Made by a program: the position numbers and the translations under genes. Shown piece by piece: positions 10,238 to 38,833 of a DNA stretch of 64,000 bases. The stretch is from Styela clava (taxonomy: Eukaryota), in NCBI RefSeq assembly GCF_964204865.1, contig NC_135258.1, forward strand, positions 5,394,001-5,458,000, read 5' to 3'. The notes under the pieces were generated by a model that was given only the letters and a program-made list of their open reading frames with translations, did no database searches and had not been told where the DNA came from. Within the stretch, counting starts at the first letter, position 1. The number at the start of each line of letters is the position of its first letter.

Positions 10238-10377
10238 CTCTTTAGTACCCATGATGACTTTAAATTATTCGCCCTGTTTCAATTTGTTAATCACAATACA
10301 TTAATGCGACTTTTGTTGTTTAATTGTAGATTATTAGTTAATGTTAACGTTAATATACTTGGTAGCAGTCTACAAAA

Positions 10378-15931: not shown

Positions 15932-18007
15932 ATGGAAACTGTGCCTAAAGATTTCACTTATGTTGAAATCTGTATAGATGAAGACATAATATATGAAGCA
16001 AGTCATTTATCTGGGGGTTTTTCTTTATCGACCAATGACTGTAGAACATCTGATAGAGACAAAATTACAAATATTTCTGGCAACACTACAATCAAAGATA
16101 ATGGCAATGCTGATATCAATGATAAATATATGCTATGTGAAGACACGGGAGAATTTACGAGCCATAACCAAGATACTGTTAGAGCTAATATAAACAGTAC
16201 TGTTGTCTATGAAAAAGACAATCATGAATTTGATTCTGTCATGGCGGTACAGGAGCAGAATGAATCTAATGCTGATCTTCTAACTGGTTCCAATTTAGGG
16301 TTCTTATCAAATGGTGAGTTATCTGACTATCTTCAAGAGGATTTGCCTAACTGTACAGATAACGCCTATCAAATTGAAAAGGGCCTAATTACTGATGAAG
16401 GGCTAACTAATACCACTTGTCTAGGTGATAAGAATGAACCGAAATTGCTCACCAGTATTGATAAGGCTTATCTAACTGATAACAGGCAGAAATCGTCTGA
16501 TTGTAATGAAGGCACCCATCTGAGTGATAAGGAGTTAACTACTGATAACACTTCTTTAAATGCTACTTCTTTAAGTGATGAATATCTCATTATTAATAAG
16601 GATTTCATTACTGATGAAAATTGTTTTGAGATAGCTCGCAGTCTTTTGAATGATATTATTGATTATATCATCAAAAAAGATATTTCTAATAAAACTGAAA
16701 TTTGTAACATATGTGAGAGGATGTTCGACTCGTCAGATAAATTGGAAAGGCATTTAAAGTTCCACAAAAAAGGTCGAAAAGTACTATATTGCCATGTGTG
16801 TGGCAAGGATTTTGATCAAAAATCGCATCTGGAGTATCATATTATGGTGTTTCACACCGGTGTAAAGCCTTATACATGTGAAATATGCGGGAAGACTTTC
16901 ACTCATAAATCGTCATTAAACATGCACATAAAATCTCACACATCTCAACCAAATGTTCCTTGTGAAATATGCGGAAAAAAGTTTTGGACAAAACACATCT
17001 TAAATACGCATAAGAAGAAACGACATATGGGGAAGCCTTTTGTTTGTACCATTTGTGGAAGCTCTTTTAGTCAAAAAAAAAGTTTGGTAAGACATGTGAA
17101 CCAGCATCCGCCACATATATGTGAAATATGTGGCAAGAAGTTCGACAATTATAAAAGTCTTCGCTGGCATTTTCCTTCTCATAAACCGAGCTGCCCTGAG
17201 CATGTCTTTGGGGACGATGCGAACACTTTTTTATGCAAAGTTTGTAAAAGAACATTTCGTCGACGACAAGACCTGACTTTCCATTCGCAAGCTCATGCTC
17301 CAAGAGTTCATAAATGTCAAGTTTGCGGGGCTGGTTATGTTCGCGATAGCTTTTTAAAGAAGCATATGATTGCACACTCGAACAGACCATATAAATGTAA
17401 ATTATGTGGGAAAAGTTTTCATTATGAATGGTCGTTAGAAAATCATCAAAAATATCATACAGGATTTAAGCGCTTGGGTTGCCACATTTGCGGAAGAAGA
17501 TATTATTTTAAACACCGCTTGGCTATACATCTAAACCATCATAAAAATGTGATAACTGAAAATGCTGTACCTAGTAATGATTCTGAATTCACTCAGCAAA
17601 CTTCTTCTACATTACAATGTGGAAGAAAGAAGATAGATGAAGCATCTGGAATTGGTAGCACAGCACCAAGTAATGGAGGTAATTGTATTTCCGTAGGACA
17701 AAAAGGGAACTCACAAACATCAACATTCACAATAGGGGAAGCTGAGGAATTCAATCTTGGCTCTGTGAAATTAATCGGGCATAAAATAGTATTCTCTCCT
17801 GAAGTGAATTCATTGTCTCTCCCTTCTGAACAAACTCAAGCAATTGCAATTTTAGATGCTAAATCGATACTCACATTTGCGATGCATAATTTCTCGAAAA
17901 AAACTAACGAATCAGTTAAGGTGCCAAAGATGACTAACATAATGACAATCAGAGAGGGGGAATCTGATCCATATAAGATCAGGACTATAGGTGATGAGCA
18001 CTCATAA
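15932..18007 (+). CDS. C2H2 zinc-finger protein (10 fingers), tandem copy 1, most divergent
   Basis: Ten CxxC...HxxxH fingers with TGVKPY-type linkers, an acidic N-terminal region and a conserved C-terminal region of about 105 aa. Intronless, with acceptor TTTTAG|AAT-ATG. Confidence 0.93.
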   Translation: METVPKDFTYVEICIDEDIIYEASHLSGGFSLSTNDCRTSDRDKITNISGNTTIKDNGNADINDKYMLCEDTGEFTSHNQDTVRANINSTVVYEKDNHEFDSVMAVQEQNESNADLLTGSNLGFLSNGELSDYLQEDLPNCTDNAYQIEKGLITDEGLTNTTCLGDKNEPKLLTSIDKAYLTDNRQKSSDCNEGTHLSDKELTTDNTSLNATSLSDEYLIINKDFITDENCFEIARSLLNDIIDYIIKKDISNKTEICNICERMFDSSDKLERHLKFHKKGRKVLYCHVCGKDFDQKSHLEYHIMVFHTGVKPYTCEICGKTFTHKSSLNMHIKSHTSQPNVPCEICGKKFWTKHILNTHKKKRHMGKPFVCTICGSSFSQKKSLVRHVNQHPPHICEICGKKFDNYKSLRWHFPSHKPSCPEHVFGDDANTFLCKVCKRTFRRRQDLTFHSQAHAPRVHKCQVCGAGYVRDSFLKKHMIAHSNRPYKCKLCGKSFHYEWSLENHQKYHTGFKRLGCHICGRRYYFKHRLAIHLNHHKNVITENAVPSNDSEFTQQTSSTLQCGRKKIDEASGIGSTAPSNGGNCISVGQKGNSQTSTFTIGEAEEFNLGSVKLIGHKIVFSPEVNSLSLPSEQTQAIAILDAKSILTFAMHNFSKKTNESVKVPKMTNIMTIREGESDPYKIRTIGDEHS

Positions 18008-18132
18008 TAAGGGGGAGTTGATCGCCGCACCATGCTAAGCTTTAGGAATACTCTTGACAAGGTACCTCTGATTACTCTATGCTGGTTAGAGTCTCATGGG
18101 GCGTAACTATTTCCATACCCCACATGGACAGG

Positions 18133-19611: not shown

Positions 19612-21116
19612 GACGGGTAACCGAACAAGCTAGGCTTTAGTTATTCCCATATCGGGTATGGGCTGGTAACCAGTTGAGGTTTACCATATGATTAAGCCGT
19701 CTTACCGACTTTCCTATTCTCTCCCTATTTTTGATGACGTCCAGAGATTAATAAAGTTGCATGCATTCAGGCAACCACAGAAATGCAGAGAGCTATTGAA
19801 TCTGCTAATTTGAATATGGATGGGAGACTTCAGCATTTCAAGTCATTACTATAAAACGAACATCCAAAAGGTAGAATTTCTACATAACTGGCATTCTTTG
19901 AATAAACTATTGGAATTAAAATTTCTTTGTTTAATGAAGGGCATGCTCACAGTAAACGAATGAGAGTTTGTGTCTGAAAACTTTTCTTAATACCATTTTT
20001 TTTAAATATGAATTTCATATATTATACGGTAATCAAATTCCTTTTTGTAGAATTTGCTGTTTTTTCTTTCGAAGTATGATCATTATCAATCTGGCTGTGT
20101 CTCCAATATTATTCACTTGCTGATAAAACATTTTGTTTGACTATTTGTATTGAAATTGGTCACAAGAAGGGTTTCGTATAAAGGAGGACTGAGATTACTG
20201 GTAGCCAATAACACAACGCAAATTTATTTTCATTGGATATCTGAGGTCAGTCAGTCAATACACATATTACATATAAAAGTAATGATTTTTGTGCGAAATT
20301 CGCCACATTTTAGAAAGTTACACACTCTCCCATTCCCACCACCTAACGCCATTGATTGTCTACAAAGTTGTCATGTTCAAACTCAACTCTCGTGAATTTT
20401 CTTTTGTGTGTTGTCATAATTTTTCTATCTTATGGTTATTAGTTTTTTTTTTTTAAATCACCCTATTAGGCTGATTTTTTAGTTCAGAAATAAATTTATT
20501 GTCCAAGAGAGTGTGCCGGTTTTATGTGAATCACACTACAACGGCGAGGAGTCCAGAAATCTTCTTGCACATGACTATTTCTACATGGGAATCGAACCTG
20601 CGAACCAACGCAGGGTATAGCATCATGTGCGGTATCGCCGAGCATTAACATGATTTTCACTTGCCTTGGTATACTTTATTATTTGCTGATGCTGAAGAAG
20701 GGAGCAATGGAATGTTCACCTCAGGTTTGTGGATTTAAAAAAAATTCACAAATACCTCCAGACTTTGTAATAAGAAAAATATGACTGCGACCTCTTGGTT
20801 TTTGGAAAATGTTTTTTTTTTCTATAGGGTGTCCATAAACATAGTCTTAATTTTTTTCAGATTGCGAAGGGAATTTATCGATACAATGTTTTGTTTTGGC
20901 CCTTAAATGAAGTAAAAATACTTAACTATTACTGATTAAAAAAACAACAAACTTGGTCAAGATTTATTAGAACTGACTTCATAGTGAAATTGTAAATAGA
21001 CTTTATGGACACCCTGTATATCTGGATACCATGAGGCAATAGAATTACCAGACTTCTCTGCGCCACACAGTGGTTCATGTAACTGACCGATTACGACTTC
21101 TTTCAATTCCATATCT

Positions 21117-21440
21117 GACACGGCGGTGTGGCTTATCGTGCTAAGCGTTAGGCATATGCTGCCACCGCACCTCTGATTACCCTGCGTGGGTTTGAATCTC
21201 ATGCAGGGATGGTTACGTGCGAGAGGATTGCTGGACTCCTCACCGCCGATTGCGCGGTTAATGTAAACGCTGGCCGGTTACGGCTTCTTCCACCATCAAG
21301 TCCATGCTTCCAAAAACAAATACCTAACTAATCCCATACCTGAGTTGGAATGGAAACTGGACGAGAGGCCATGGTTCGCCATATGGTTAAGCCGTCTTAT
21401 CGGCTTTCCTCTTCCCCAGGACACATATGTAAATCCTATT
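21117..21440 (+). mobile_element. tRNA-derived SINE, copy amplified with the ZF unit
   Basis: Same family as 56777-57115. Duplicated at about 25370-25691, 29843-30140 and 34286-34609. Confidence 0.8.
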
Positions 21441-22012
21441 CGTGGTTTACCTCCCTCATGAAAATTATCAATGTTGAATCTGAATACCCTGTAGGAGAGG
21501 ATTGCTGGGATCCTTAGTGTCACATTGTGGTTTATGTAACGTCTTATGGCTTCTTCAAAATTCATATTCACATTTGCTGCTTAATCTCAGTTGCAAAGTG
21601 TCTCAGACTAGATGACTCTGTGAGTCTTTTCGCGTCAACTGCAACAAGCCGATATCTGTTTGTCATTTATTTACAATATATTATTTATTCATTCTTCATA
21701 TCGCGCATTCTTTTTGCATGGCGAAAATATATATCTGAAGTATATCATGCCAGATTTTCTGAGTTATTCTAGCTCAGTGGTTCTCAACCAGGGAATTGTA
21801 GTCCATCAAGAGGCCCACAAGGCCCATTCTCTCTACAAGATAACTCTCCTTCCTACTGAGTTTCATTGCTTAATATGGTTATTTCGTGGGGCGTTTTCAC
21901 TGTTTGAGCATAATGAAATTGATAAACAGGGGGGCCATGAGGCCAAAAGCCATAAAATGTTGAGAACCCACTGCCAACTTATTATCCTTGTTTTTTTTTA
22001 TAACTTCAGAAT

Positions 22013-24100
22013 ATGGGATCTGTACCTAGAGATTTAACTTATGTTGAAATCTGTCTTGATGAAGACATAATATATGAAGCAAGCCTTTTATCTGAGGAGA
22101 TAAATAGAGAGGAAATTACAAGTATTTCTGGCAACACTACAGTCGAAGATATTTGCAATGTTGATAATAGTGATGAATATACGCCATGTGAAGACACAGG
22201 AGAATTTACGAGCCATAAGCAAGAGACTGCTAGAACTGATATAAACAGCACTGTTATCTTTGAAGAAGATAATCATGAATTTGATTCTGAAGAATCCTCC
22301 GTCATAACAATGCAGGAGCAGAATGAACCCACTGCTGTTTTTGTAACTGATTCCAACTCGGGGTTCTTATCAAAAGATGAATTATCTGACTATCTTCAAC
22401 AGGAATTGCCCAGCGGTATTGATAATGCATATCTAAGTGATAATGGCTTAATGACTGATGATGGGCACAATAATAACACCCGTCCACGACTAGGTGATAA
22501 GAATGGATCGAAATTGCCCACCAGTATTGATAACGCTCATCCATTCGATAACAGGCGGAAATCGTCTAATTGTAATGTAGGCACCTATCTGAGTGATAAG
22601 GAATTAACTACTGATAAAGAAGGAATGTTACCCAACTCCAAAGATAGCACTTCTCTAAGTGATAAAGATCTCATTGTTGATAAGGATTCCCATACTAATG
22701 AGAATTATTTTGAGATAGCTCGCAGTTTCTTGAATGACGTTATTGATTATATTATCGAAAAAGAAGTTTCTGATAAAACTGAAAGTTGTAATATATGTGA
22801 GAGGAGATTCGGCACATTAGCCAAATTGGAAAGACATTTGAAGTTTCACTATAAAGGCCGAAAAATACTTTATTGCTCTGTGTGTGGCAAAGATTTTGGT
22901 CAAAAATCGCATCTGGAGTATCATATGGTGCTGCACACCGGTGTAAAGGCGTATTCATGTGAAATATGCGGAAAGACTTTCACTCAAAAATCGTCGTTAA
23001 ACATGCATATAAAATCTCACACATCTCAACCAAATGTTCCTTGCGAGATATGCGGAAAAAAGTTTTGGACAAAATACATCTTAAATTTACATACGAGGAA
23101 ACGACATATGGGGTTGCCCTTTGTTTGTAACATTTGCGGAAGTTCTTTTAGTGGAAAACAAGGTTTGCTACACCATGTGAGCCTACATCCTCCACATATA
23201 TGTGAAACATGTGGCAAGGAGTTTGACAATTATAAAAGTCTTCGCTTGCATAAAGATTCTCATAAACCAAGTTGGCCTGAGCATGTCTTTGCGGACGGTG
23301 TAAAAGGTTTTCGCTGCGAAGTTTGTAGAAGAACATTTCGACGAAGACAAGACTTTACTTTCCATTCTCAAGCTCATGCTCCAAAAGTTCATAAGTGTCA
23401 AGTTTGTGGTGCTGGATTTGTTCGTGATAGCTATTTAAAGAAGCATATGATTGCACACTTAGAAAGACCGTATAAATGTGAATCATGCTGGAAAAGTTTC
23501 CATCATAAAAAGTCGTTAGAAAATCATCAAATATATCATACAGGAATAAAGCGCTTTGATTGCAACATTTGCGGAAAAGGATATTATTGGAAACATCGCT
23601 TGGCTATACATCTAAAACTTCATAAAAATGTAAAAACTGAAAATGCTGTACATAGTAATGATTCTGAATTTGCTCAGCAAACTTCTTCTACATTACAATG
23701 TAGAAAAAAGGAGATGGATGGAGCATCTGGAATTGGTAGCACAGCACCAAGTAATGAAGGTGTAATGTTGGGAAATTGTATTTCCGTAGGACAAAAAGGG
23801 AATTCACAAACATCTACATTCACAATAGGGGAAGCTGAGGAATTCAATCTCGGCTCTATGAAATTTATCGGGCATAAAATAGTATTCTCTCCTGAAGTGA
23901 ATCCATTGTCTCTCCCTTCTGAACAAACTCGAACAATCGCAATTTTGGATGCTGAATCGATAGTGAAATTCGCTATGCATAACATGTCGAAAAAAACTAA
24001 AGAACCAGTTAAGGTTCCAAAGATGGCGAACATAATGACAATAAAAGAGGGGGATTCTGATCCCTATAATATCAGGACTATGGGTGATGAGCACTCATAA
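22013..24100 (+). CDS. C2H2 zinc-finger protein (10 fingers), tandem copy 2
   Basis: Paralog of copy 1 with an intact 695-aa ORF and acceptor TTCAG|AAT-ATG. Confidence 0.93.
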   Translation: MGSVPRDLTYVEICLDEDIIYEASLLSEEINREEITSISGNTTVEDICNVDNSDEYTPCEDTGEFTSHKQETARTDINSTVIFEEDNHEFDSEESSVITMQEQNEPTAVFVTDSNSGFLSKDELSDYLQQELPSGIDNAYLSDNGLMTDDGHNNNTRPRLGDKNGSKLPTSIDNAHPFDNRRKSSNCNVGTYLSDKELTTDKEGMLPNSKDSTSLSDKDLIVDKDSHTNENYFEIARSFLNDVIDYIIEKEVSDKTESCNICERRFGTLAKLERHLKFHYKGRKILYCSVCGKDFGQKSHLEYHMVLHTGVKAYSCEICGKTFTQKSSLNMHIKSHTSQPNVPCEICGKKFWTKYILNLHTRKRHMGLPFVCNICGSSFSGKQGLLHHVSLHPPHICETCGKEFDNYKSLRLHKDSHKPSWPEHVFADGVKGFRCEVCRRTFRRRQDFTFHSQAHAPKVHKCQVCGAGFVRDSYLKKHMIAHLERPYKCESCWKSFHHKKSLENHQIYHTGIKRFDCNICGKGYYWKHRLAIHLKLHKNVKTENAVHSNDSEFAQQTSSTLQCRKKEMDGASGIGSTAPSNEGVMLGNCISVGQKGNSQTSTFTIGEAEEFNLGSMKFIGHKIVFSPEVNPLSLPSEQTRTIAILDAESIVKFAMHNMSKKTKEPVKVPKMANIMTIKEGDSDPYNIRTMGDEHS

Positions 24101-26349
24101 AAAATGGACAGTTGACCGTCGTGTCGTGCTGAGCGTCAGGAATACGTTGCCATCGAACCTATGAACATCCTACGCTTAAAATCTCATGGGCATTATTATC
24201 ACCATGCCCGACATGAACTGGTAACCAAACGAGCTAAGCATTAGTTATTCCTATACCGGGGCTGTGGTTTGCCATATGATTAAGCCATCTTATCGACTTC
24301 CCTTTTCCCTCCGAACAGCCATAAGTTAGTGAGTCTACATAACTGGCATTTTTTGAATAAACTATTGGAATAAAAATTTCTTTGTTTGATAAAGGGCATG
24401 CTCAACAGTAAACGAATGAGAGTTTGTGTCTGAAAACTTTTCTTAAAAATATTTTTTAAAATATGAATTTTATATAATTTGCCGTTTTTCCCCTCAAAGT
24501 ATGATCCTTATCAATCTGGTTGTGTCTCTGCTGTTATTCACTTGCTGATAAAACATTTTGTTGGACTATTTGTATTAAAATTGGGTCACAAGAAGGGTTT
24601 CGTATAAAGGAGGACTGACAATACTGATAGCCAATAAGTACACCGCAAATTTGTTATTTATTGAATATCTGAGGTCAGACAGTCTATATACATATTACAT
24701 AAAAAATTAATGATTTTTGTGAAAACTTCGCCACATTTTAGAAAGTTTCACATCTCCCATTCCCACCACCTGACGCCATTGATTGTCCATAAAGTTTTCC
24801 CTTTTGTGTGTTGTCATTTTTTATAGCCTCTTGCACATGACTATTCTCACATGGGAATTGAGCCTGCGAACCAACGCAGGGTATAGCATGATGTGCGACA
24901 TCGCCGAGTGTTAACATGATTTTCACTTGTCCTGGTATACTTTTATATTTGGTGATGCTGAGGCATGGGCACAATGGCCTGTGCACCCCATGGTTGTGAA
25001 TTTGAAAAAAAAAACGCAAACAAATTTTCTACATTTCTCAAATTCTTTATAGCCACAGTTTACCTCTGTCAATAAAATAGTTTTTGTTCTATAGGGTGTC
25101 CACAAACATGAAGTCTTCAAATTGCGAAGGGAATTTATCGATACCATATATTGTTTTGGCCCTTAAATGAAGTAAAAATATTTGAACTATTACTGATTAA
25201 AAAAACAACAAACCTGGTCAAGGTTTATTGAGAACTGACTTCATAGCTAAATAGTATCGTCACCCTGTATATCTGGATACCATGAGGCAATAGAATTACC
25301 AGACTCCTCTGCGCCACAGAGTTGTTCATGTAACTGACTGATTACGGCTTCTCGCTCAATTCCATATCTGACGCGGCGGTGTGGCTCATCGTTCTAAGCT
25401 TTAAGAATACGCTTCCACCCCACCTCTGATTACCCTGCGTGGGTTTGAATCTCATGCAGGGATGGTTACGTGTGAGAGGATTGCTGGACTCCTCACCGCC
25501 GATTGCGTGGTTAATTTAACCAATGGTCGGTTACGGCTTCCTCCACCATCAAGTCCATGCTTCCAAAAACAAATAACTATCTAATCCCATACCCGACTTG
25601 GAACGGTAACCAGACGAGAGGCCATGGTTCACCATATGGTTAAGCCGTCTTATCGGCTTTCCTCTCCCCCAGGACTCATGTAAATCCTATCCGTGTTTTA
25701 CCTCCCTCATGAAAATTATCACGGTTGAATCCGAATACCCTGTATGAGAGAATTGCTGGAATACTTGGTGTCACATTGTGGTTTATGTAACATCTTATGG
25801 CTTCTTCAAACTCCATATCCACATTTGTTACTTCAACTCAGCTGCAAGCTGTCGCTGACTAGATGACTCTGTGAGTCTTTTCGCGTCAACTGCAACAAGC
25901 CGATATCTGTTTGTCATTTTGTTACATTATATTATTTATTCATTTTTCATATCGCGCATTGTTTTTGCATGATGAAAAAAATAAATATCTGAAGCTATCC
26001 CTGGTTACCTTATTAAATACTCATTTGCTTATATTGAACTATGTTGTGCCAGATTGTCTGAGTTATTTTAGCTCAGTGGTTCTCAACCAGTGATCTGTGG
26101 TCCATCAAGAGGCCCCTGATTTTTCTATTGTCTCTACAAGACAACTCCCCCTTCTTCTTAGTTTCATTGCTTGATAAGGTTATTTCGTGGGGTGTTTTCA
26201 CTGTTTGAGCATAATGAAATTTGGAATTGACACAGAAATGATAAACGGGGGCCATGAGTGCCAAAAGCCTTCAGAAGAGGGCCACAAGCCATAAAAAGGT
26301 TAAGAACCACTGTCAACTTATTATCTTTGTTTTTTTATAACTTTAGAAT

Positions 26350-28389
26350 ATGGAAACTGTGCTTAAAGATTTAACTTATGTTGAAATTTGTCTTGATGAA
26401 GACATAATATATGAAGCAAGCCTTTTATCTGAGGAGATAAATAGAGAGAAAATTACAAGTATTTCTGGAAACACTGCAGTCGAAGATATTTGCAATGCTG
26501 ATAATAGTGATAAATATGTGCCATGTGAAGACACAGGGGAATTTACGAGCCATAACCAAGATACTGCTAGAACTGATATAAACAGCACTGTTATCTTTGA
26601 AGAAGACAATAATGAATTTGATTCTGAAGAATCCTCCGTCATAGCAATGCAGGAGCAGAATGAACCCACTGCTGTTTTTGTAACTGATCTCAACTCAGGG
26701 TTCTTATCAAAAGATGAATTATCTGTTTATCTTCAACAGGGATCTATTGATAACGCCCATCAAAGTGATAATCGCTTAATTACTGATGAAGAGCAAAATA
26801 ATAAGTTAATCGGAGGTAATGGACAGAAATTGTCCAACTTTATTGATAACGCTCATGTAACTGATAACAGGCAGAAATCATCTGATTGTAATGAAGACAA
26901 TCTTCTGAGTGATAAGGTATTAACTACTGATAAAGGAGGAATATTGCAAAGTAATCATGATCTCATTATTGATAAGGATTCCCATACTAATGAGAAACAT
27001 TTTAAGATAGCTCGCAGTCTCTTGAATGATATTATTGATTATATTATCGAAAAAGAAATTTCTGATAAAACTGAAATTTGTAACATATGTGGGAGAGGAT
27101 TTGACTCATCAGCTAAGTTGGAAAGGCATTTGGAGTTCCACATAAGAGGTCGAAAAATACATTATTGCTCTGTGTGTGGCAAGGATTACGATCGAAAATC
27201 AAATCTGGAGTATCATATGGTACGACACACCGGTGTAAAGCCTCATACATGTGAAATATGCGGGCAGAGTTTCACCCAAAAACCATGGTATAACATACAC
27301 ATAAAATCACATACATCAAAACCAAATGTTCCTTGTGAAATATGCAGAAGAAAGTTTTGGGCAAAACACATCTTGAATAAACATAAGAGGAAACATCATA
27401 GTGGGTTGCCTTTTGTCTGTAATATTTGCGGAAGCTCTTTCAGTGGAAAACAAGGTTTGGTACAGCATGTGAACGTACATCCGCCACATATATGCGAAAC
27501 ATGTGGCAAAGAGTTTAATAATTATAAAAGTCTACGCTTGCATTTTCCCTCTCATAAACCAAGTTGGCCTGAGCATGTCTTTGCAGACGGTGTAAAAGGT
27601 TTTCGTTGCGAAGTTTGTAAAAGAACATTTCATCGAAGACAAGATCTGACTTTCCATTCGCAATCTCATGCTTCTAAAGTTTATAAATGTCAAGTTTGTG
27701 GTCTTGGATTCGTGAGGGATAGCTTTTTAAAGAAGCATATGATTGCACACTCAGAAAGACCGTATAAATGTAAATTATGCGTGAAAAGTTTCCATCATGA
27801 AAAGTCTTTAGAAAATCATCAAATATATCATACAGGAATAAAACACTTCGGTTGCCATATTTGTGGTAGAAGGTTCTATTGGAAACATCGCTTGGCTATA
27901 CATCTAAAACGCCATAAAAATGTAAAGACTGAAAATGCTGTACCTGGTAACGATCCTGAATTCGCTCAGCAGACTTCTACATTACAATGCGAAAAAATGG
28001 ATATGGATGAAGCATCTGGGATTGGTACTGTAGAACCCAATAATGGAAGTGTAATGTCGGGAAATTGTATTTCCATAGGACAAAAAGGGAACTCACAAAC
28101 ATCAACATTCGCGATAGGCGAAGCTGAGGAATTCAATCTTGGTTCTGTGAAATTTACCGGGCATAAAATAGTATTCTCTCCTGAAGTGAATTCATTGTCT
28201 CTCCCTTCTGAACAAACTCGAGCAATAGCAATTTTGGATGCTGAATCGATAGTGAAATTCGCTATGCATAACATGTCGAAAAAAACTAAAGAATCAGTTA
28301 AGGTACCAAAGATGGCGAACATAATGACGATAAAAGAGGGGGATTCTGATCCATATAAGATCAGGACTATGGGTGATGAGCACTCATAA
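26350..28389 (+). CDS. C2H2 zinc-finger protein (10 fingers), tandem copy 3
   Basis: Intact 679-aa ORF, nearly identical to copies 4 and 5. Confidence 0.93.
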   Translation: METVLKDLTYVEICLDEDIIYEASLLSEEINREKITSISGNTAVEDICNADNSDKYVPCEDTGEFTSHNQDTARTDINSTVIFEEDNNEFDSEESSVIAMQEQNEPTAVFVTDLNSGFLSKDELSVYLQQGSIDNAHQSDNRLITDEEQNNKLIGGNGQKLSNFIDNAHVTDNRQKSSDCNEDNLLSDKVLTTDKGGILQSNHDLIIDKDSHTNEKHFKIARSLLNDIIDYIIEKEISDKTEICNICGRGFDSSAKLERHLEFHIRGRKIHYCSVCGKDYDRKSNLEYHMVRHTGVKPHTCEICGQSFTQKPWYNIHIKSHTSKPNVPCEICRRKFWAKHILNKHKRKHHSGLPFVCNICGSSFSGKQGLVQHVNVHPPHICETCGKEFNNYKSLRLHFPSHKPSWPEHVFADGVKGFRCEVCKRTFHRRQDLTFHSQSHASKVYKCQVCGLGFVRDSFLKKHMIAHSERPYKCKLCVKSFHHEKSLENHQIYHTGIKHFGCHICGRRFYWKHRLAIHLKRHKNVKTENAVPGNDPEFAQQTSTLQCEKMDMDEASGIGTVEPNNGSVMSGNCISIGQKGNSQTSTFAIGEAEEFNLGSVKFTGHKIVFSPEVNSLSLPSEQTRAIAILDAESIVKFAMHNMSKKTKESVKVPKMANIMTIKEGDSDPYKIRTMGDEHS

Positions 28390-30799
28390 AAAATGGACAG
28401 TTGACCGCCCTGTCGTGCTCAGCGTCAGGAATACGTTGCAATCGAACCTCTGAATATCCTACGCTTAGAATCTCATGGGCATTATTATCACCATGCCAGA
28501 CATGAACTGGTAACCGGACGAGCTAAGCCTTAGTTATTCCTATACCGGGGCTGTGGTTTGCCATATGATTAAGCCATCTTATCGACTTTCCTTTTTCCTC
28601 CGAACAGCCATAAGTTAGTGAGTCTACACAACTGGCATTTTTTGAATAAACTATTGGAATAAAAATTTCTTTGTTTGATAAAGGGCATGCTCACAGTAAA
28701 CAAATGAGAGTTTGTGTCTGAAAACTTTTATTAAAAATATTTTTTAAAATATGAATTTCATATAATTTGCCGTTTTTCCCCTCAGAGTATGATCCTTATC
28801 AATCTGGTTGTGTCTCTGCTGTTATTCACTTGCTGATAAAACATTTTGTATGACTATTTGTATTGAAATTGGTCACAAGAAGGGTTTCGTATAAAGGAGG
28901 ACTGACAATACTGATAGCCAATAAGTACACCGCAAATTTGTTATATATTGAATATCTGAGGTCAGACAGACAGTCTATATACATATTTCATGAAAAATCG
29001 ATGATTTTTGTGAAAACTTCGCTACATTTTAGAAAGTTACACATCTCCCATCCCCACCACCTGACGCCATTTATCGTCTATAAAGTTTTCCCTTTTGTGT
29101 GTTGTCATTTTTTATAGCCCAGTTCAAAATAAATTTTCTATCTCATAGTTATTGCGCTTTTAGTTTTTTTCGAAATCACCCTATTTGGCTGATTTACTAG
29201 TTCGGAAATAAAATTAATGTTGAAGAGAGTGTGCCGGTTTTATGTGAACCACCCTACGACGGCAAGGAGTCCAGCAATCCTCTTTCACATGACTATTCTC
29301 ACATGGGAATTGAGCCTGCGAACCAACGCAGGGTATAGCATGATGTGCGACATCGCCGAGTGTTAACATGATTTTCACTTGTCCTGGTATACTTTTATAT
29401 TTGGTGATGCTGAGGCATGGGCACAATGGCCTGTGCACCCCATGGTTGTGAATTTGAAAAAAAAAACGCAAACAAATTTTCTACTAGAAAACTACATTTC
29501 TCAAATTCTTTATAGCCACAGTTTACCTCTGTCAATAAAATAGTTTTTGTTCTATAGGGTGTCCACAAACATGAAGTCTTCAAATTGCGAAGGGAATTTA
29601 TCGATACCATATATTGTTTTGGCCCTTAAATGAAGTAAAAATACTTGAACTATTACTGATTAAAAAAACAACAAACCTGGTCAAGATTTATTAGAACTGA
29701 CATTTATAGCTAAATTGTAAATAGACTTCATGGACACCCTGTATATCCTGGATACCATGAGGCAATAGAATTACCAGACTCCTCTGCGCCACAGAATGGT
29801 TCATGTAACTGACCCATTACGACTTCTTTCAATTCCATATCTGACGCGGCGGTGTGGCTCATCGTGCTAAGCTTTAGGAATACGCTTCCACCCACCTCTG
29901 ATTACTCTGCGTGAGTTTGAATCCCATGCAGGGATGGTTACGTGCGAGAGGATTGCTGGACTCCTCACCGCCGATTGTTACGGCTTCCCCCACCATCAAG
30001 TCCATGCTTCCAAAAACAAACAAACAACTAATCCCATACCCCACTTGGAACGGTAACCGGACGAGAGGCCATGGTTCACCATACGGTTAAGCCGTCCTAT
30101 CGGCTTTCCTCTCCCCCAGGACACATATGTAAATCCTATTCCTGGTTTACCTCCCTCATGAAAATTATCACTGTTGAATCCGAATACCCTGTATGAGAGA
30201 ATTGCTGGGATCCTTAGTGTCACATTGTGGTTTATGTAACATCTTATGGCTTCTTCAAACTCCATATCCACATTTGTTACTTCAACTCAGCTGCAAGCTG
30301 TCGCTGACTAGATGACTCTGTGAGTCTTTTCGCGTCAACTGCAACAAGCCGATATCTGTTTGTCATTTTGTTACATTATATTATTTATTCATTTTTCATA
30401 TCGCGCATTGTTTTTGCATGATGAAAAAAATAAATATCTGAATCTATCCCTGGTTACCTTATTAAATACTCATTTGCTTATATTGAACTATGTTGTGCCA
30501 GATTGTCTGAGTTATTTTAGCTCAGTGGTTCTCAACCAGTGATCTGTGGTCCATCAAGAGGCCCCTGATTTTTCTATTGTCTCTACAAGACAACTCCCCC
30601 TTCTTCTTAGTTTCATTGCTTGATAAGGTTATTTCGTGGGGTGTTTTCACTGTTTGAGCATAATGAAATTTGGAATTGACCACAGAAATGATAAACGGGG
30701 GCCATGAGTGCCAAAAGCCTTCAGAAGAGGGCCACAAGCCATAAAAAGGTTGAGAACCACTGTCAACTTATTATCTTTGTTTTTTTATAACTTTAGAAT

Positions 30800-32839
30800 A
30801 TGGAAACTGTGCTTAAAGATTTAACTTATGTTGAAATTTGTCTTGATGAAGACATAATATATGAAGCAAGCCTTTTATCTGAGGAGATAAATAGAGAGAA
30901 AATTACAAATATTTCTGGAAACACTGCAGTCGAAGATATTTGCAATGCTGATAATAGTGATAAATATGTGCCATGTGAAGACACAGGGGAATTTACGAGC
31001 CATAACCAAGATACTGCTAGAACTGATATAAACAGCACTGTTATCTTTGGGGAAGACAATCATGAATTTGATTCTGAAGAATCCTCCGTCATAGCAATGC
31101 AGGAGCAGAATGAACCCACTGCTGTCTTTGTAACTGATCTCAACTCAGGGTTCTTATCAAAAGATGAATTATCTGTTTATCTTCAACAGGGATCTATTGA
31201 TAACGCCCATCAAAGTGATAATCGCTTAATTACTGATGAAGAGCAAAATAATAAGTTAATCGGAGGTAATGGACAGAATTTGTCCAACTTTATTGATAAC
31301 GCTCATGTAACTGATAACAGGCAGAAATCATCTGATTGTAATGAAGACAATCTTCTGAGTGATAAGGTATTAACTACTGATAAAGGAGGAATATTGCAAA
31401 GTAATCATGATCTCATTATTGATAAGGATTCCTATACTAATGAGAATTATTTTAAGATAGCTCGCAGTCTCTTGAATGATATTATTGATTATATTATCGA
31501 AAAAGAAATTTCTGATAAAACTGAAATTTGTAACATATGTGGGAGAGGATTTGACTCGTCAGCTAAGTTAGAAAGGCATTTGGAGTTCCACATAAGAGGT
31601 CGAAAAATACATTATTGCTCTGTGTGTGGCAAGGATTACGATCGAAAATCAAATCTGGAGTATCATATGGTACGACACACCGGTGTAAAGCCTCATACAT
31701 GTGAAATATGCGGGCAGAGTTTCACCCAAAAACCATGGTATAACATACACATAAAATCACATACATCAAAACCAAATGTTCCTTGTGAAATATGCGGAAG
31801 AAAGTTTTGGGCAAAACACATCTTGAATAAACATAAGAGGAAACATCATAGTGGGTTGCCTTTTGTCTGTAATATTTGCGGAAGCTCTTTCAGTGGAAAA
31901 CAAGGTTTGGTACAGCATGTGAACGTACATCCGCCACATATATGCGAAACATGTGGCAAAGAGTTTAATAATTATAAAAGTCTACGCTTGCATTTTCCCT
32001 CTCATAAACCAAGCTGGCCTGAGCATGTCTTTGCAGACGGTGTAAAAGGTTTTCGTTGCGGAGTTTGTAAAAGAACATTTCATCGAAGACAAGATCTGAC
32101 TTTCCATTCGCAAGCTCATGCTTCTAAAGTTCATAAATGTCAAGTTTGTGGTGCTGGATTCGTGCGGGATAGCTTTTTAAAGAAGCATATGATTGCACAC
32201 TCAGAAAGACCGTATAAATGTGAATTATGCGTAAAAAGTTTTCATCATAAAAAGTCTTTAGAAAATCATCAAATATATCATACAGGAATAAAACACTTCG
32301 GTTGTCATATTTGTGGTAGAAGGTTCTATTGGAAACATCGCTTGGCTATACATCTAAAACGCCATAAAAATGTAAAGACTGAAAATGCTGTACCTGGTAA
32401 CGATTCTGAATTCGCTCAGCAGACTTCTACATTACAATGCGAAAAAATGGATATGGATGAAGCATCTGGAATTGGTACTGTAGAACCCAATAATGGAAGT
32501 GTAATGTCGGGAAATTGTATTTCCATAGGACAAAAAGGGAACTCACAAACATCAACATTCGCGATAGGCGAAGCTGAGGAATTCAATCTTGGTTCTGTGA
32601 AATTAACCGGGCATAAAATAGTATTCTCTCCTGAAGTGAATTCATTGTCTCTCCCTTCTGAACAAACTCGAGCAATAGCAATTTTGGATGCTGAATCGAT
32701 AGTGAAATTCGCTATGCATAACATGTCGAAAAAAACTAAAGAATCAGTTAAGGTACCAAAGATGGCGAACATAATGACGATAAAAGAGGGAGATTCTGAT
32801 CCCTATAATATCAGGACTATGGGTGATGAGCACTCATAA
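30800..32839 (+). CDS. C2H2 zinc-finger protein (10 fingers), tandem copy 4
   Basis: Intact 679-aa ORF. Confidence 0.93.
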   Translation: METVLKDLTYVEICLDEDIIYEASLLSEEINREKITNISGNTAVEDICNADNSDKYVPCEDTGEFTSHNQDTARTDINSTVIFGEDNHEFDSEESSVIAMQEQNEPTAVFVTDLNSGFLSKDELSVYLQQGSIDNAHQSDNRLITDEEQNNKLIGGNGQNLSNFIDNAHVTDNRQKSSDCNEDNLLSDKVLTTDKGGILQSNHDLIIDKDSYTNENYFKIARSLLNDIIDYIIEKEISDKTEICNICGRGFDSSAKLERHLEFHIRGRKIHYCSVCGKDYDRKSNLEYHMVRHTGVKPHTCEICGQSFTQKPWYNIHIKSHTSKPNVPCEICGRKFWAKHILNKHKRKHHSGLPFVCNICGSSFSGKQGLVQHVNVHPPHICETCGKEFNNYKSLRLHFPSHKPSWPEHVFADGVKGFRCGVCKRTFHRRQDLTFHSQAHASKVHKCQVCGAGFVRDSFLKKHMIAHSERPYKCELCVKSFHHKKSLENHQIYHTGIKHFGCHICGRRFYWKHRLAIHLKRHKNVKTENAVPGNDSEFAQQTSTLQCEKMDMDEASGIGTVEPNNGSVMSGNCISIGQKGNSQTSTFAIGEAEEFNLGSVKLTGHKIVFSPEVNSLSLPSEQTRAIAILDAESIVKFAMHNMSKKTKESVKVPKMANIMTIKEGDSDPYNIRTMGDEHS

Positions 32840-35247
32840 AAAATGGACAGTTGACCGCCATGTCGTGCTCAGCGTCAGGAATACGTTGCCATCGAACCTC
32901 TGAACATCCTACGCTTAGAATCTCATGGGCATTATTATCACCATGCCCAACATGAACTGGTAACCGGACGAGCTAAGCGTTAGTTATTCCTATACCGGGG
33001 CCGTGGTTTGCCATATGATTAAGCCATCTTATCAACTTTCCTTTTCTCTCCGAACAGCCATAAGTTAGTGAGTCTACATAACTGGCATTTTTTGAATAAA
33101 CTATTGGAATAAAAATTTCTTTGTTTAATAAAGGGCATGCTCACAGTAAACGAATGAGAGTTTGTGTCTGAAAACTTTTCTTAAAAATATTTTTTAAAAT
33201 ATGAATTTCATATAATTTGCCGTTTTTCCCCTCAAAGTATGATCCTTATCAATCTGGTTGTGTCTCTGCTGTTATTCACTTGCTGATAAAACATTTTGTT
33301 GGACTATTTGTATTAAAATTGGGTCACAAGAAGGGTTTCGTATAAAGGAGGACTGACAATACTGATAGCCAATAAGTACACCGCAAATTTGTTATATATT
33401 GAATATCTGAGGTCAGACAGACAGTCTATATACATATTTCATGAAAAATCGATGATTTTTGTGAAAACTTCGCTACATTTTAGAAAGTTACACATCTCCC
33501 ATCCCCACCACCTGACGCCATTGATCGTCCATGAAGTTTTCCCTTTTGTGTGTTGTCATTTTTCATAGCCTAGTTCAAAATAAATTTTCTATCTTATAGT
33601 TATTGCGTTTTTAGTTTTTTTTCGAAATCACCCTATTTGGCTGATTTTCTAGTTCGGAAATAAATTTAATGTTGAAGAGAGTGTGCTGGTTTTATGTGAA
33701 CCACCCTACGACAGCGAGGAGTCCAGCAATCCTCTTGCACATGACTATTCTCACATGGGAATTAAGCCTGCGAACCAACGCAGGGTATAGCATGATGTGC
33801 GACATTGCCGAGTGTTGACATGATTTTCACTTGTCCTGGTGTACTTTTATATTTGGTGATGCTAAGGCATGGGCACAATGGCATGTTCACCCCATGGTTG
33901 TGAATTTGAAAAAAAAATGCAAACAAATTTTCTACTAGAAAACTACATTTCTCAAATTCTTTATAGCCACAGTTTACCTCTGTCAATAAAATAGTTTTTG
34001 TTCTATAGGGTGTCCACAAACATGAAGTCTTCAAATTGCGAAGGGAATTTATCGATACCATATATTGTTTTGGCCCTTGAATGAAGTAAAAATACATGAA
34101 CTATTACTGATTAAAAAAACAAACCTGGGCAAGGTTTATTGAGAACTGACTTCATAGCTAAGTTGTAAATAGTATGGACACCTTGTATATCTGGATACCA
34201 TGAGGCAATAGAATTACCAGACTTCTCTGCGCCACAGGGTGGTTCATGTAACATACTGATTACGACTTCTTTCAATTCCATATCTGACGCGGCGGTGTGG
34301 CTCATCGTGCTAAGCTTTAGGAATACGCTTCCACCCCACCTCTGATTACTCTGCGTGAGTTTGAATCCCATGCAGGGATGGTTATGTGCGAGAGGATTGC
34401 TGGACTCCTCACCGCCGATTGCGTGGTTAATGTAACCGATGGTCGGTTACGGCTTCCTCCACCATCAAGTCCATGCTTCCAAAAACAAATAACTAACTAA
34501 TCCCATACCCGACTTGGAACGGTAACCGGACGAGAGGCCATGGTTCACCATATGGTTAAGCCGTCTTATCGGCTTTCCTCTTCCCCAGGACACATATGTA
34601 AATCCTATTCCTGGTTTACCTCCCTCATGAAAATTATTACTGTTTAATCCGAATACCCTGTAGGAGAGAATTGCTGGGATCCTTAGTGTCACATTGTGGT
34701 TTATGTAACATCTTATGGCTTCTTCAAACTCCATATCCACATTTGTTACTTCAACTCAGCTGCAAGCTGTCGCTGACTAGATGACTCTGTGAGTCTTTTC
34801 GCGTCAACTGCAACAAGCCGATATCTGTTTGTCATTTTGTTACAATATATTATTTATTCATTTTTCATATCGCGCATTGTTTTTGCATGACGAAAAAATA
34901 AATATCTGAATCTATCCCTGGTTACCTTATTAAATACTCATTTGCTTATATTGAACTATGTTGTGCCAGATTGTCTGAGTTATTTTAGCTCAGTGGTTCT
35001 CAAGAGGCCCCTGATTTTTCTATTGTCTCTACAAGACCACTCCCCTTTCTTCTTAGTTTCATTGCTTGATAAGGTTATTTCGTGGGGTGTTTTTTGACTG
35101 TTTGAGCATAATGAAATTGGGAATTGACCACAGAAATGATAAACGGGGGCCATGAGTGCCAAAAGCCTTCAGAAGAGGGCCACAAGCCATAAAAGGTTGA
35201 GAACCACTGTCAACTTATTATCTTTGTTTTTTTTATAACTTTAGAAT

Positions 35248-37287
35248 ATGGAAACTGTGCTTAAAGATTTAACTTATGTTGAAATTTGTCTTGATGAAGA
35301 CATAATATATGAAGCAAGCCTTTTATCTGAGGAGATAAATAGAGAGAAAATTACAAGTATTTCTGGAAACACTGCAGTCGAAGATATTTGCAATGCTGAT
35401 AATAGTGATAAATATGTGCCATGTGAAGACACAGGGGAATTTCCGAGCCATAACCAAGATACTGCTAAAACTGATATAAACAGCACTGTTATCTTTGAAG
35501 AAGACAATAATGAATTTGATTCTGAAGAATCCTCCGTCATAGCAATGCAGGAGCAGAATGAACCCACTGCTGTTTTTGTAACTGATCTCAACTCAGGGTT
35601 CTTATCAAAAGATAAATTATCTGTTTATCTTCAACAGGGATCTATTGATAACGCCCATCAAAGTGATAATCGCTTAATTACTGATGAAGAGCAAAATAAT
35701 AAGTTAATCGGAGGTAATGGACAGAAATTGTCCAACTTTATTGATAACGCTCATGTAACTGATAACAGGCAGAAATCATCTGATTGTATTGAAGACAATC
35801 TTCTGAGTGATAAGGTATTAACTACTGATAAAGGAGGAATATTGCAAAGTAATCATGATCTTATTATTGATAAGGATTCCTATACTAATGAGAATTATTT
35901 TAAGATAGCTCGCAGTCTCTTGAATGATATTATTGATTATATTATCGAAAAAGAAATTTCTGATAAAACTGAAATTTGTAACATATGTGGGAGAGGATTT
36001 GACTCATCAGCTAAGTTGGAAAGGCATTTGGAGTTTCACATAAGAGGTCGAAAAATACATTATTGCTCTGTGTGTGGCAAGGATTACGATCAAAAATCAC
36101 ATCTGGAGTATCATATGGTACGACACACCGGTGTAAAGCCTCATACATGTGAAATATGCGGGCAGAGTTTCACCCAAAAACCATGGTATAACATACACGT
36201 AAAATCACATACATCAAAACCAAATGTTCCTTGTGAAATATGCGGAAGAAAGTTTTGGGCAAAACACATCTTGAATAAACATAAGAGGAAACATCATAGT
36301 GGGTTGCCTTTTGTCTGTAATATTTGCGGAAGCTCTTTCAGTGGAAAACAAGGTTTGGTACAGCATGTGAACGTACATCCGCCACATATATGCGAAACAT
36401 GTGGCAAAGAGTTTAATAATTATAAAAGTCTACGCTTGCATTTTCCCTCTCATAAACCAAGCTGGCCTGAGCATGTCTTTGCAGACGGTGTAAAAGGTTT
36501 TCGTTGCGAAGTTTGTAAAAGAACATTTCATCGAAGACAAGATCTGACTTTCCATTCGCAAGCTCATGCTTCTAAAGTTCATAAATGTCAAGTTTGTGGT
36601 GCTGGATTCGTGCGGGATAGCTTTTTAAAGAAGCATATGATTGCACACTCAGAAAGACCGTATAAATGTGAATTATGCGTAAAAAGTTTTCATCATAAAA
36701 AGTCTTTAGAAAATCATCAAATATATCATACAGGAATAAAACACTTCGGTTGTCATATTTGTGGTAGAAGGTTCTATTGGAAACATCGCTTGGCTATACA
36801 TCTAAAACGCCATAAAAATGTAAAGACTGAAAATGCTGTACCTGGTAACGATTCTGAATTCGCTCAGCAGACTTCTACATTACAATGCGAAAAAATGGAT
36901 ATGGATGAAGCATCTGGAATTGGTACTGTAGAACCCAATAATGGAAGTGTAATGTCGGGAAATTGTATTTCCATAGGACAAAAAGGGAACTCACAAACAT
37001 CAACATTCGCGATAGGCGAAGCTGAGGAATTCAATCTTGGTTCTGTGAAATTTACCGGGCATAAAATAGTATTCTCTCCTGAAGTGAATTCATTGTCTCT
37101 CCCTACTGAACAAACTCGAGCTATAGCAATTTTGGATGCTGAATCGATAGTGAAATTCGCTATGCATAACATGTCGAAAAAAACTAAAGAATCAGTTAAG
37201 GTACCAAAGATGGCGAACATAATGACGATAAAAGAGGGGGATTCTGATCCCTATAAGATCAGGACTATGGGTGATGAGCAATCATAA
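35248..37287 (+). CDS. C2H2 zinc-finger protein (10 fingers), tandem copy 5
   Basis: Intact 679-aa ORF. Confidence 0.93.
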   Translation: METVLKDLTYVEICLDEDIIYEASLLSEEINREKITSISGNTAVEDICNADNSDKYVPCEDTGEFPSHNQDTAKTDINSTVIFEEDNNEFDSEESSVIAMQEQNEPTAVFVTDLNSGFLSKDKLSVYLQQGSIDNAHQSDNRLITDEEQNNKLIGGNGQKLSNFIDNAHVTDNRQKSSDCIEDNLLSDKVLTTDKGGILQSNHDLIIDKDSYTNENYFKIARSLLNDIIDYIIEKEISDKTEICNICGRGFDSSAKLERHLEFHIRGRKIHYCSVCGKDYDQKSHLEYHMVRHTGVKPHTCEICGQSFTQKPWYNIHVKSHTSKPNVPCEICGRKFWAKHILNKHKRKHHSGLPFVCNICGSSFSGKQGLVQHVNVHPPHICETCGKEFNNYKSLRLHFPSHKPSWPEHVFADGVKGFRCEVCKRTFHRRQDLTFHSQAHASKVHKCQVCGAGFVRDSFLKKHMIAHSERPYKCELCVKSFHHKKSLENHQIYHTGIKHFGCHICGRRFYWKHRLAIHLKRHKNVKTENAVPGNDSEFAQQTSTLQCEKMDMDEASGIGTVEPNNGSVMSGNCISIGQKGNSQTSTFAIGEAEEFNLGSVKFTGHKIVFSPEVNSLSLPTEQTRAIAILDAESIVKFAMHNMSKKTKESVKVPKMANIMTIKEGDSDPYKIRTMGDEQS

Positions 37288-38520: not shown

Positions 38521-38833
38521 GACGCGGCGGTGTGGCTCATCGCGATAAGCAATAGGAATACGCTCGCCACCGCACCTCTAATTACTTCGAATCCCATGCG
38601 GGATGGTTATGTGCGAGAGGATTGCTGGACTCCTCGCCGCCATAGGGTGGTTCACGTAACCGCTGGTCGGTTACAGCTTCTTCCACCGTCAAGTCCATGC
38701 TTCCGAAAAACAAGTAACTAACTAATCCAATACCCGACATGGATTGGTAATCGGTCGAGAGGCCGTGGTTCACCATATGGATACGCCGTCTTATCGGCTT
38801 TCCACTCCCCTGTGATGAATATGTAAATCCTAT
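38521..38833 (+). mobile_element. tRNA-derived SINE
   Basis: Near full-length copy of the 56777 family. Confidence 0.8.

What the first reader, a model, noticed from the sequence alone, without database searches (positions are those of the whole stretch)
15932..37287. Young zinc-finger array diverging at DNA-contacting residues
Seen (helix positions -1,2,3,6): finger 2 is QSHY in copies 1, 2 and 5 but RSNY in copies 3 and 4. Between the nearly identical copies 3/4 and 5, the only changes in this finger are CGA/CAA (27193 vs 36091) and AAT/CAT (27202 vs 36100), exactly positions -1 and +3. Finger 3 goes HSSM, QSSM, QPWI; finger 4 THIT, TYIL, AHIK; finger 5 QKSR, GQGH, GQGQ. Fingers 7, 8 and 10 are nearly fixed and all five ORFs are intact. 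Established: these positions set C2H2 specificity, and tandem expansion with contact-residue turnover typifies TE-repressing KRAB-ZFP and ZAD-ZNF clusters. Inference: an independent, KRAB-less system of the same kind in a MITE/SINE-rich genome.
Basis: partly seen in the sequence, partly recalled or inferred. Interest (0 to 1): 0.7.

Follow-up and report, generated by a model that had tools for sequence, protein, structure and literature searches.

The report
Sea-squirt zinc-finger gene array, partly retargeting
A sea squirt carries five tandem, intact copies of a ten-finger gene of a kind that usually binds DNA, whose front fingers change their predicted DNA-reading residues about three times faster than the rest of the finger; this likely gives three copy types different targets, but nothing here shows that they silence transposons.

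Summary
The array is real: five intact ORFs with ten C2H2 fingers each, fingerprints as reported. Database relatives are named Styela clava. The copies form three older types (dS 0.25-0.34); only copies 3-5 are young (dS 0.02-0.03). RefSeq holds the same types as 1+3+1 against 1+1+3 here, so copy number likely varies. Contact residues evolve faster than other finger sites (omega 0.54 vs 0.28, p=0.007; fingers 1-5: 0.91 vs 0.26), but never above 1, and M2a gains nothing on the finger array. The headline finger-2 pair is one event; within types contact sites show no excess (6/40 vs 21/130). Unexpectedly, types 2 and 3 differ about twice as much at silent sites in the fingers as in flanks, as gene conversion opposed by selection would give. 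No KRAB, ZAD or other known effector domain. No evidence of transposon targeting; expression and read depth untested. It is one small cluster among about 294 ZNF ORFs of this species.

The parts
15932..18007 (+). Copy 1 (type 1), 691 aa, 10 C2H2 fingers at 16703-17542
   Evidence: 95.9% identical to RefSeq XP_039263667.1
22013..24100 (+). Copy 2 (type 2), 695 aa, fingers at 22787-23623
   Evidence: 96.3-98.1% identical to three RefSeq proteins XP_039262821/822/823
26350..28389 (+). Copy 3 (type 3), 679 aa, fingers at 27079-27915; finger 2 RSNY
30800..32839 (+). Copy 4 (type 3), 679 aa, fingers at 31529-32365; finger 2 RSNY; mosaic of copy-3-like and copy-5-like sequence
   Evidence: in copy-3 coordinates 4 of 4 variable sites at 27138-27301 set c5 apart, 14 of 15 at 27346-28020 set c3 apart
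35248..37287 (+). Copy 5 (type 3), 679 aa, fingers at 35977-36813; finger 2 QSHY as in RefSeq XP_039263562.1
27079..27555 (+). Variable finger module F1-F6 (shown for copy 3); contact omega 0.70 (F1-6) or 0.91 (F1-5)
27607..27915 (+). Conserved finger module F7-F10 after a 17-aa linker (shown for copy 3); contact omega 0.27
28066..28386 (+). Family-specific C-terminal region (shown for copy 3), under purifying selection, no known relative; candidate effector domain (inferred)
   Evidence: C-terminal omega 0.25-0.34; 5 hits in the genome, all in this array; no credible outside hit among 1.84 billion representatives; fold not predictable, pLDDT 36
19857..37468 (+). Four tandem duplication units of about 4.3-4.45 kb (19857-24311, 24312-28600, 28601-33050, 33051-37468), each with upstream DNA and one gene
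   Evidence: self-BLAST and alignment
25364..25691 (+). SINE-like repeat carried in every unit of copies 2-5 (also 21111-21439, 29837-30139, 34280-34608)
   Evidence: 80-87% identical to the young copy at 56775-57114

Best explanation
This is a tandem cluster of five intact ten-finger C2H2 genes of three diverged types, likely encoding DNA-binding regulators in which fingers 7-10 would hold a shared site and fingers 1-5 would give each type its own specificity, with unequal crossing-over likely changing copy number. Shown: the anatomy, the three types, faster change at contact residues of the front fingers while their other residues stay constrained, mosaic copies, and a silent-divergence peak over the gene core between types 2 and 3. 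Inferred: gene conversion and unequal crossing-over keep blending the flanks, while selection removes conversions that would erase the differences between finger cassettes, so the types are kept because they bind different sequences. Inferred: the acidic N-terminal region and the conserved C-terminal region carry the regulatory output. The targets may be genes or repeats; this reading does not need a transposon arms race, and the average rate at contact sites is about neutral rather than adaptive.
For: Contact vs other finger sites: omega 0.79 vs 0.41 (shared silent rate) or 0.54 vs 0.28 (finger array with its own silent rate), p=0.007 in both. F1-5: 0.91 vs 0.26, p=7e-5; F1-6: 0.70 vs 0.28, p=0.0015; front vs rear contact sites p=0.0009 and 0.03; helix +1/+5 omega 0.10, structural sites 0.08, so the fingers are not decaying as a whole. 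All three types are intact in this window and among the RefSeq proteins, with type fingerprints almost unchanged. Silent differences c2 vs c5: 44/222 in the finger array vs 26/304 in N- and C-terminal coding flanks, p=2e-4, also at non-CpG two/three-fold sites 15/111 vs 6/123, p=0.02; four-fold sites 19/67 vs non-coding 310/2252, p=0.002. c1 vs c2 shows no such excess (30/211 vs 28/270, p=0.21), which argues against a simply higher mutation rate in fingers. Copy 1 is the odd sequence at 62 of 87 sites at the gene ends but 118 of 328 in the core, 0 of 300 permutations. A divergence peak under conversion is a described sign of selection keeping paralogs different (PMC3924837, passages). RefSeq proteins split 1+3+1 by type against 1+1+3 here.
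Against: Only three independent lineages, a mosaic history that violates the tree, and my own GY94/F3x4 code rather than codeml. The F1-5 and F1-6 splits were chosen after seeing the data. Contact omega is compatible with 1 (p=0.71 for F1-5), which relaxed constraint also predicts. Within types there is no contact excess (6/40 vs 21/130, p=0.64). The conversion-resistant core (alignment codons about 124-656 of 706) is wider than the finger array and begins in an indel-rich stretch that could block conversion mechanically; at silent sites alone the odd-one-out contrast is not significant (12/49 vs 16/38, p=0.11). At non-CpG four-fold sites the excess is not significant (8/32 vs 5/30). Positions -1,+3,+6 are aromatic in 15 of 90 cases vs 36 of 777 in other ZNF loci of the genome (p=8e-5), and several linkers are non-canonical, so the usual recognition code may not apply. 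Expression, DNA binding and read depth are untested.
Confidence: 0.45

Rival explanations
1. Relaxed constraint: fingers 6/7-10 do the binding, the front fingers keep their fold but no longer read DNA, so their contact residues drift; copies come and go neutrally.
For: Contact omega in F1-5 is 0.91, with 0.5 and about 1.5 as rough 95% limits; M2a gives no gain on the array; type-3 finger 3 has Pro, Trp and Tyr in place of Ser, Ser and the core Leu; no contact excess within types.
Against: Neighbouring helix positions +1/+5 stay at omega 0.10; all ten sequences keep all ten fingers; the silent-divergence peak between types 2 and 3 is not expected without selection or a mechanical barrier.
Confidence: 0.22
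2. One reading: a KRAB-less repressor family in an arms race with transposons, with contact residues under positive selection and an unknown effector domain recruiting silencing.
For: Young high-copy repeats exist: a 340-bp SINE-like element with 40 of 40 scored hits at 98-100% and 3888 first-look candidates, and a MITE-like element with 2803 candidates. ZNF and retroelement numbers correlate across animals and S. clava has 294 ZNF and 2147 retroelement ORFs (PMC10547256). Contact sites do change faster. Type-2 proteins start with a PxDL[ST]-like motif (pattern recalled).
Against: No omega above 1; five genes only, with N- and C-terminal regions shared with no other gene in the genome; no known repressor domain; no PxVxL-type motif (pattern recalled); acidic N-terminus (20-22% Asp+Glu) fits an activator at least as well (own knowledge); no target evidence.
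Confidence: 0.2
3. The fingers bind RNA or protein rather than DNA, so the 'contact' changes tune another interface.
For: Aromatic and hydrophobic residues are three- to four-fold enriched at -1,+3,+6 (15/90 vs 36/777; 27/90 vs 88/777); short and long non-canonical linkers.
Against: The rate excess falls on the very positions that contact bases in DNA-bound C2H2 fingers (established knowledge); F2-F3, F8-F9 and F9-F10 linkers are TGEKP-like.
Confidence: 0.1
4. Copies 3-5 are an assembly or haplotype artefact.
For: RefSeq has one type-3 protein; c3-c5 differ about as much as alleles do (97% aa). Read depth is untested.
Against: Three different sequences cannot be two haplotypes of one locus; all three differ pairwise at 3.5-4.5% of non-coding sites, have intact frames and show a recombinant pattern; RefSeq likewise has three different type-2 proteins.
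Confidence: 0.03

Closest known systems
Lineage-specific tandem C2H2-ZNF clusters of metazoans (Wells et al. 2023, PMC10547256), including the S. clava zf-C2H2 expansion (PMC8122590)
   Same: Poly-finger array in one ORF, tandem birth-and-death, variable base-contacting residues, no KRAB. S. clava is in that survey with 294 ZNF ORFs; 154 zf-C2H2 genes are reported by PMC8122590.
   Different: This five-gene family was not analysed in what I read; fingers sit in the middle, with a 157-aa C-terminal region; aromatic-rich contact positions; two finger modules with different rates.
KRAB-ZFPs (tetrapods)
   Same: Clustered, copy-variable poly-finger genes with faster change at contact residues.
   Different: No KRAB domain; omega above 1 not found; no TE target shown; tiny family.
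FiNZ-ZNFs (cyprinid fish; PMC10547256)
   Same: KRAB-less tandem ZNFs.
   Different: About 700 genes with a shared N-terminal domain, M2a favoured in 4 of 7 clades and TE derepression on knockdown. Here the non-finger regions are confined to five genes and M2a is not favoured on the fingers.
ZAD-ZNFs (insects; Oddjob-Nicknack cluster, PMC7655104)
   Same: Small tandem cluster; long, poorly structured, fast-evolving region before the fingers; here too 10 of the top 15 sites of the whole-gene M2a fit are N-terminal.
   Different: No ZAD; no PxVxL-type motif; in ZAD-ZNFs selection falls mainly on linkers, not contact residues.
Human red/green opsin pair as a model of selection against gene conversion (PMC3924837)
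   Same: Tandem paralogs with homogenised flanks and a divergence peak over the functionally different part.
   Different: Here the peak is broad, modest (about two-fold), seen in one pair of types, and the functional difference is untested.

Membership tests
KRAB-ZFP | N-terminal KRAB domain | tested here: not met
   Pfam scan of copies 1-3 at E<=0.1 lists no KRAB. No conserved upstream coding exon seen in about 500 bases aligned or 2 kb translated, and RefSeq models start at the same Met; an upstream exon is not excluded without transcripts.
KRAB-ZFP | Tandem array of C2H2 fingers in one exon | tested here: met
   10 fingers in one ORF, 5 of 5 copies
KRAB-ZFP / FiNZ-ZNF | Positive selection (omega > 1) at base-contacting residues | tested here: not met
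   omega 0.54-0.79 overall, 0.91 for F1-5, 1.19 for F3-5 (not different from 1, LRT 0.35); M2a vs M1a LRT 0 on 281 array codons. Low power: three lineages.
KRAB-ZFP / FiNZ-ZNF | Faster change at contact than at other finger positions | tested here: met
   p=0.007; p=0.034 by permutation between types, p=0.64 within types
KRAB-ZFP / FiNZ-ZNF | Binding to and repression of transposable elements | not testable with these tools
   No motif predictor or binding data on hand
KRAB-ZFP / FiNZ-ZNF | Expression in germline or early embryo | tested here: inconclusive
   No RNA holder listed; gene ids in the PMC8122590 table could not be matched to these ORFs
FiNZ-ZNF | Shared N-terminal effector domain across a large family | tested here: not met
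   N-terminal 240 aa and C-terminal 107 aa each match 5 places in the genome, all in this array. No FiNZ profile was available to scan.
ZAD-ZNF | N-terminal ZAD (zf-AD) domain | tested here: not met
   No zf-AD hit
Lineage-specific birth-and-death C2H2-ZNF cluster | Tandem paralogs without orthologs outside the lineage | tested here: met
   Only S. clava proteins match the N-terminal region (3 of 1891 candidates) or cover the C-terminal query fully (3 of 79 hits); coverage of other tunicates in the collection is unknown
Lineage-specific birth-and-death C2H2-ZNF cluster | Copy-number turnover | tested here: inconclusive
   1+1+3 here vs 1+3+1 among RefSeq proteins; proteins only, their genomic order not seen, read depth untested

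The most novel reading that the evidence does not exclude
A tunicate-specific, KRAB-independent programmable repressor: a constant finger module (F7-10) anchors on a repeat family, a swappable front module (F1-5) tracks its subfamilies, selection protects the finger cassette from gene conversion while copy number of each type segregates in the population, and an undescribed C-terminal domain recruits silencing.
Probability: 0.15. Interest if true: 0.72.

Novelty: new member of a known kind. Interest (0 to 1): 0.36.

Why it matters
Whether invertebrate poly-finger expansions act like KRAB-ZFPs is open: Wells et al. say binding in non-mammalian species still needs direct validation. This cluster is small, has three clean types and natural single-finger variants (QSHY vs RSNY), so it is an easy test case in an invertebrate chordate. 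If the divergence peak holds up, it is a case of selection keeping zinc-finger cassettes apart against gene conversion. As it stands it is an ordinary fast-evolving ZNF cluster with a modest signal and no shown target.

Tried and rejected
Read depth and transcript mapping over the array were not obtained, so the artefact test by reads and expression stay open. Sequencing-run search: no RNA holder listed; unlaid shares are not used as evidence. Positive selection: M2a on the whole gene gave LRT 6.3, p=0.04, but 10 of the top 15 sites lie in the indel-rich N-terminus and the model ignores the two-fold silent-rate difference, so I do not count it; on the finger array alone there is no gain. CpG mutation as the sole cause of the silent peak: the excess is stronger at CpG-prone sites but also present at non-CpG two/three-fold sites for c2 vs c3/c4/c5, not at non-CpG four-fold sites; partly rejected. 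Effector domain: Pfam none; 1.84-billion-protein search with the C-terminal 107 aa gave the family itself and one repetitive protein, judged spurious; AlphaFold2 models too poor for a fold search (pLDDT 41 with 10 sequences, 36 for the C-terminal piece); the Atlas gave no answer. Upstream coding exon: none evident. Rfam: 0 matches in the window at E<=0.5, so the SINE call rests on A- and B-box-like sequence read by eye. Motif prediction against repeats was not attempted: no recognition-code tool, and many contact residues are atypical. Literature: searches (7 and 2 papers) showed no paper on this cluster; the library lacks most subscription journals. Earlier scan notes: 8 of 50 fitting notes shown, none on a zinc-finger cluster.
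Full report
Observation. The window holds five uninterrupted ORFs on the + strand, each with ten C2H2 fingers: c1 15932-18007, c2 22013-24100, c3 26350-28389, c4 30800-32839, c5 35248-37287. Copies 2-5 lie in tandem units of 4.3-4.45 kb. A splice-acceptor-like pyrimidine tract and AG sit three bases before each ATG. The window lies in a 377-Mb genome, G000; the only full-length relatives in the protein collection are named Styela clava by UniRef and nr.

Age and types. There are three types: c1, c2 and c3-c5. Between types dS is 0.25-0.34 and protein identity 74-81%; within type 3 dS is 0.019-0.029 and identity 97%. So only c3-c5 are young. RefSeq holds five proteins of the family from another sequence set: one type 1, three different type 2 and one type 3 with QSHY in finger 2. 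The three type-2 proteins differ from each other throughout (96-98% identity), so they are not splice isoforms; one is a shorter 599-aa model. I infer a 1+3+1 haplotype against 1+1+3 here; I saw proteins only, not their order on DNA. Copy 4 is a mosaic: 4 of 4 variable sites over fingers 1-3 (27138-27301) group it with c3, 14 of 15 from finger 4 onward (27346-28020) group it with c5. RSNY therefore arose once. Three distinct intact sequences, 3.5-4.5% apart in non-coding DNA, cannot be two alleles, so an artefact is unlikely; read depth was not obtained.

Is change concentrated at contact residues? I fitted GY94/F3x4 codon models of my own on 671 gap-free codons of the five window copies. With one silent rate, omega is 0.79 at the 40 contact codons, 0.41 at 130 other non-structural finger codons, 0.12 at structural codons, 0.53 N-terminal and 0.25 C-terminal; contact vs other finger p=0.007, contact vs 1 p=0.26. 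The finger array has a two-fold higher silent rate (lnL gain 8.4); allowing for it gives 0.54 vs 0.28 (p=0.007) and contact omega below 1 (p=0.006). On the array alone M2a does not improve on M1a (LRT 0). On the whole gene it does marginally (p=0.04), with 10 of the top 15 sites N-terminal and two contact sites, F4 +6 and F5 +6. The excess is in the front fingers: F1-5 contact 0.91 vs other 0.26 (p=7e-5), F6-10 contact 0.23 vs 0.29; split at the 17-aa linker, F1-6 0.70 vs 0.28 (p=0.0015) and F7-10 0.27 vs 0.27. Helix +1/+5 stay at 0.10. For F1-5, omega 0.5 and about 1.5 are the rough 95% limits. Both splits were chosen after seeing the data. On amino acids of all ten sequences: between types 23/40 vs 47/130 (p=0.034, counting the two finger-2 changes), within types 6/40 vs 21/130 (p=0.64). 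Verdict: a real contact-specific excess between types, no demonstrated positive selection, and the finger-2 pair is an anecdote.

Silent differences between c2 and c5 are 44/222 in the finger array and 26/304 in the coding flanks (p=2e-4; c3 and c4 give the same); c1 vs c2 gives 30/211 vs 28/270 (p=0.21) and c1 vs c5 39/212 vs 32/261 (p=0.07). Four-fold sites in the array differ at 19/67 against 310/2252 non-coding sites (p=0.002). The SINE-like copy shared by the c2 and c3 units differs at only 29/328 sites. Copy 1 is the odd sequence at 62 of 87 sites at the gene ends but only 118 of 328 in the core (0 of 300 permutations). The simplest reading is that conversion or unequal crossing-over has blended the ends and flanks of types 2 and 3 while the core stayed apart. 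Such peaks are a described sign of selection keeping paralogs different (PMC3924837, passages). Limits: the core is wider than the fingers and starts at an indel-rich stretch that may block conversion; part of the excess is at CpG-prone sites; with silent sites alone the odd-one-out test is not significant (p=0.11).

Effector domains. Pfam finds only C2H2 families on copies 1-3 (3 of the 5 copies scanned). The acidic N-terminal 240 aa and the C-terminal 107 aa each match only these five places in G000. The C-terminal piece has no credible relative among 1.84 billion representatives yet is the most constrained non-structural part. Its fold could not be predicted. Type-2 proteins begin with PRDLT, like a CtBP-binding motif (pattern recalled), in 3 of 4 sequences, the fourth being the short model; types 1 and 3 lack it. 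No conserved upstream coding exon was evident. Contact positions are unusually aromatic: 15 of 90 against 36 of 777 in 21 other ZNF loci of the genome (24 loci L006-L029 less 3 near-duplicates).

Transposon link. The genome has young, abundant repeats: a 340-bp element with a tRNA-like head (A- and B-box read by eye) has 40 of 40 scored hits at 98-100% among 3888 first-look candidates; a palindromic 236-bp element has 2803 candidates. That is context, not evidence of targeting. The genome also holds many other poly-finger loci (326 matches, a lower bound), some sharing an N-terminal segment and with canonical helices; these look like better candidates for a broad repeat-binding family.

Literature. 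Wells et al. 2023 (PMC10547256; I saw passages, the Discussion, and a search of its supplements with 3 files not searched) show that ZNF and retroelement numbers correlate across animals, list S. clava with 294 ZNF and 2147 retroelement ORFs, and describe KRAB-less FiNZ-ZNFs that repress TEs in zebrafish. PMC8122590 (passages and part 1 of 11 of the supplement) reports 154 zf-C2H2 genes in S. clava. Searches listed no paper on this cluster; some searches were seen as listings only.

Mechanism. Shown: anatomy, three types, contact-specific rate excess in the front fingers, mosaicism, silent peak. Inferred: DNA-binding regulators with a constant rear module and a type-specific front module, kept distinct by selection while unequal crossing-over changes copy number (0.45). 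Rivals: relaxed front fingers (0.22), TE arms race (0.20), RNA or protein binding (0.10), artefact (0.03). It works like the known birth-and-death poly-finger clusters and is a member of that loose class; it is not a KRAB-, ZAD- or FiNZ-ZNF. Interest 0.36; new member of a known kind.

Noticed in passing
window 56775-57114: 340-bp SINE-like repeat with a tRNA-like head; 40 of 40 scored hits at 98-100% identity and 3888 first-look candidates in G000: a recently active family. Older copies sit in each unit of copies 2-5 and at 38515-38833.
   Followed up: partly
window 18133-19611: 1479-bp element with about 500-bp inverted ends (76% alike, 38 of the first 40 bases matching) directly behind copy 1; looks like a foldback or non-autonomous DNA transposon.
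   Followed up: no
window 12972-13268, 53780-54016, 61172-61407: Palindromic MITE-like elements; the last has 2803 first-look candidates, best hits 89-93% identical.
   Followed up: partly
L006, L007, L009, L011, L015, L021, L024, L025, L029 (G000 C5, C9, C19): Poly-finger ORFs of 6-25 canonical fingers that share an N-terminal segment before the first finger: a larger dispersed ZNF family, a better place to look for a tunicate FiNZ-like domain.
   Followed up: no
L021/L022 and L025/L026/L027 (G000 C5, 5.80-5.95 Mb): ZNF ORFs repeated at 70-75 kb spacing with 98-100% identical N-termini and identical fingerprints: very recent segmental duplication or an assembly duplicate.
   Followed up: no
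window 6941-9232, 10366-11622, 40592-41416 (-): NOP2-like RNA methyltransferase (763 aa frame), kelch-repeat protein (418 aa) and a 274-aa frame without a clear Pfam family are each one long open frame, apparently without coding introns.
   Followed up: no
window 45844-46234: Two head-to-tail 195-bp copies, 98% identical.
   Followed up: no
P0009 (RefSeq XP_039262823.1): Type-2 protein whose C-terminal end carries the residues of types 1 and 3 at three sites where other type-2 proteins differ, and which lacks the first 96-99 aa: possible chimera from unequal crossing-over.
   Followed up: partly
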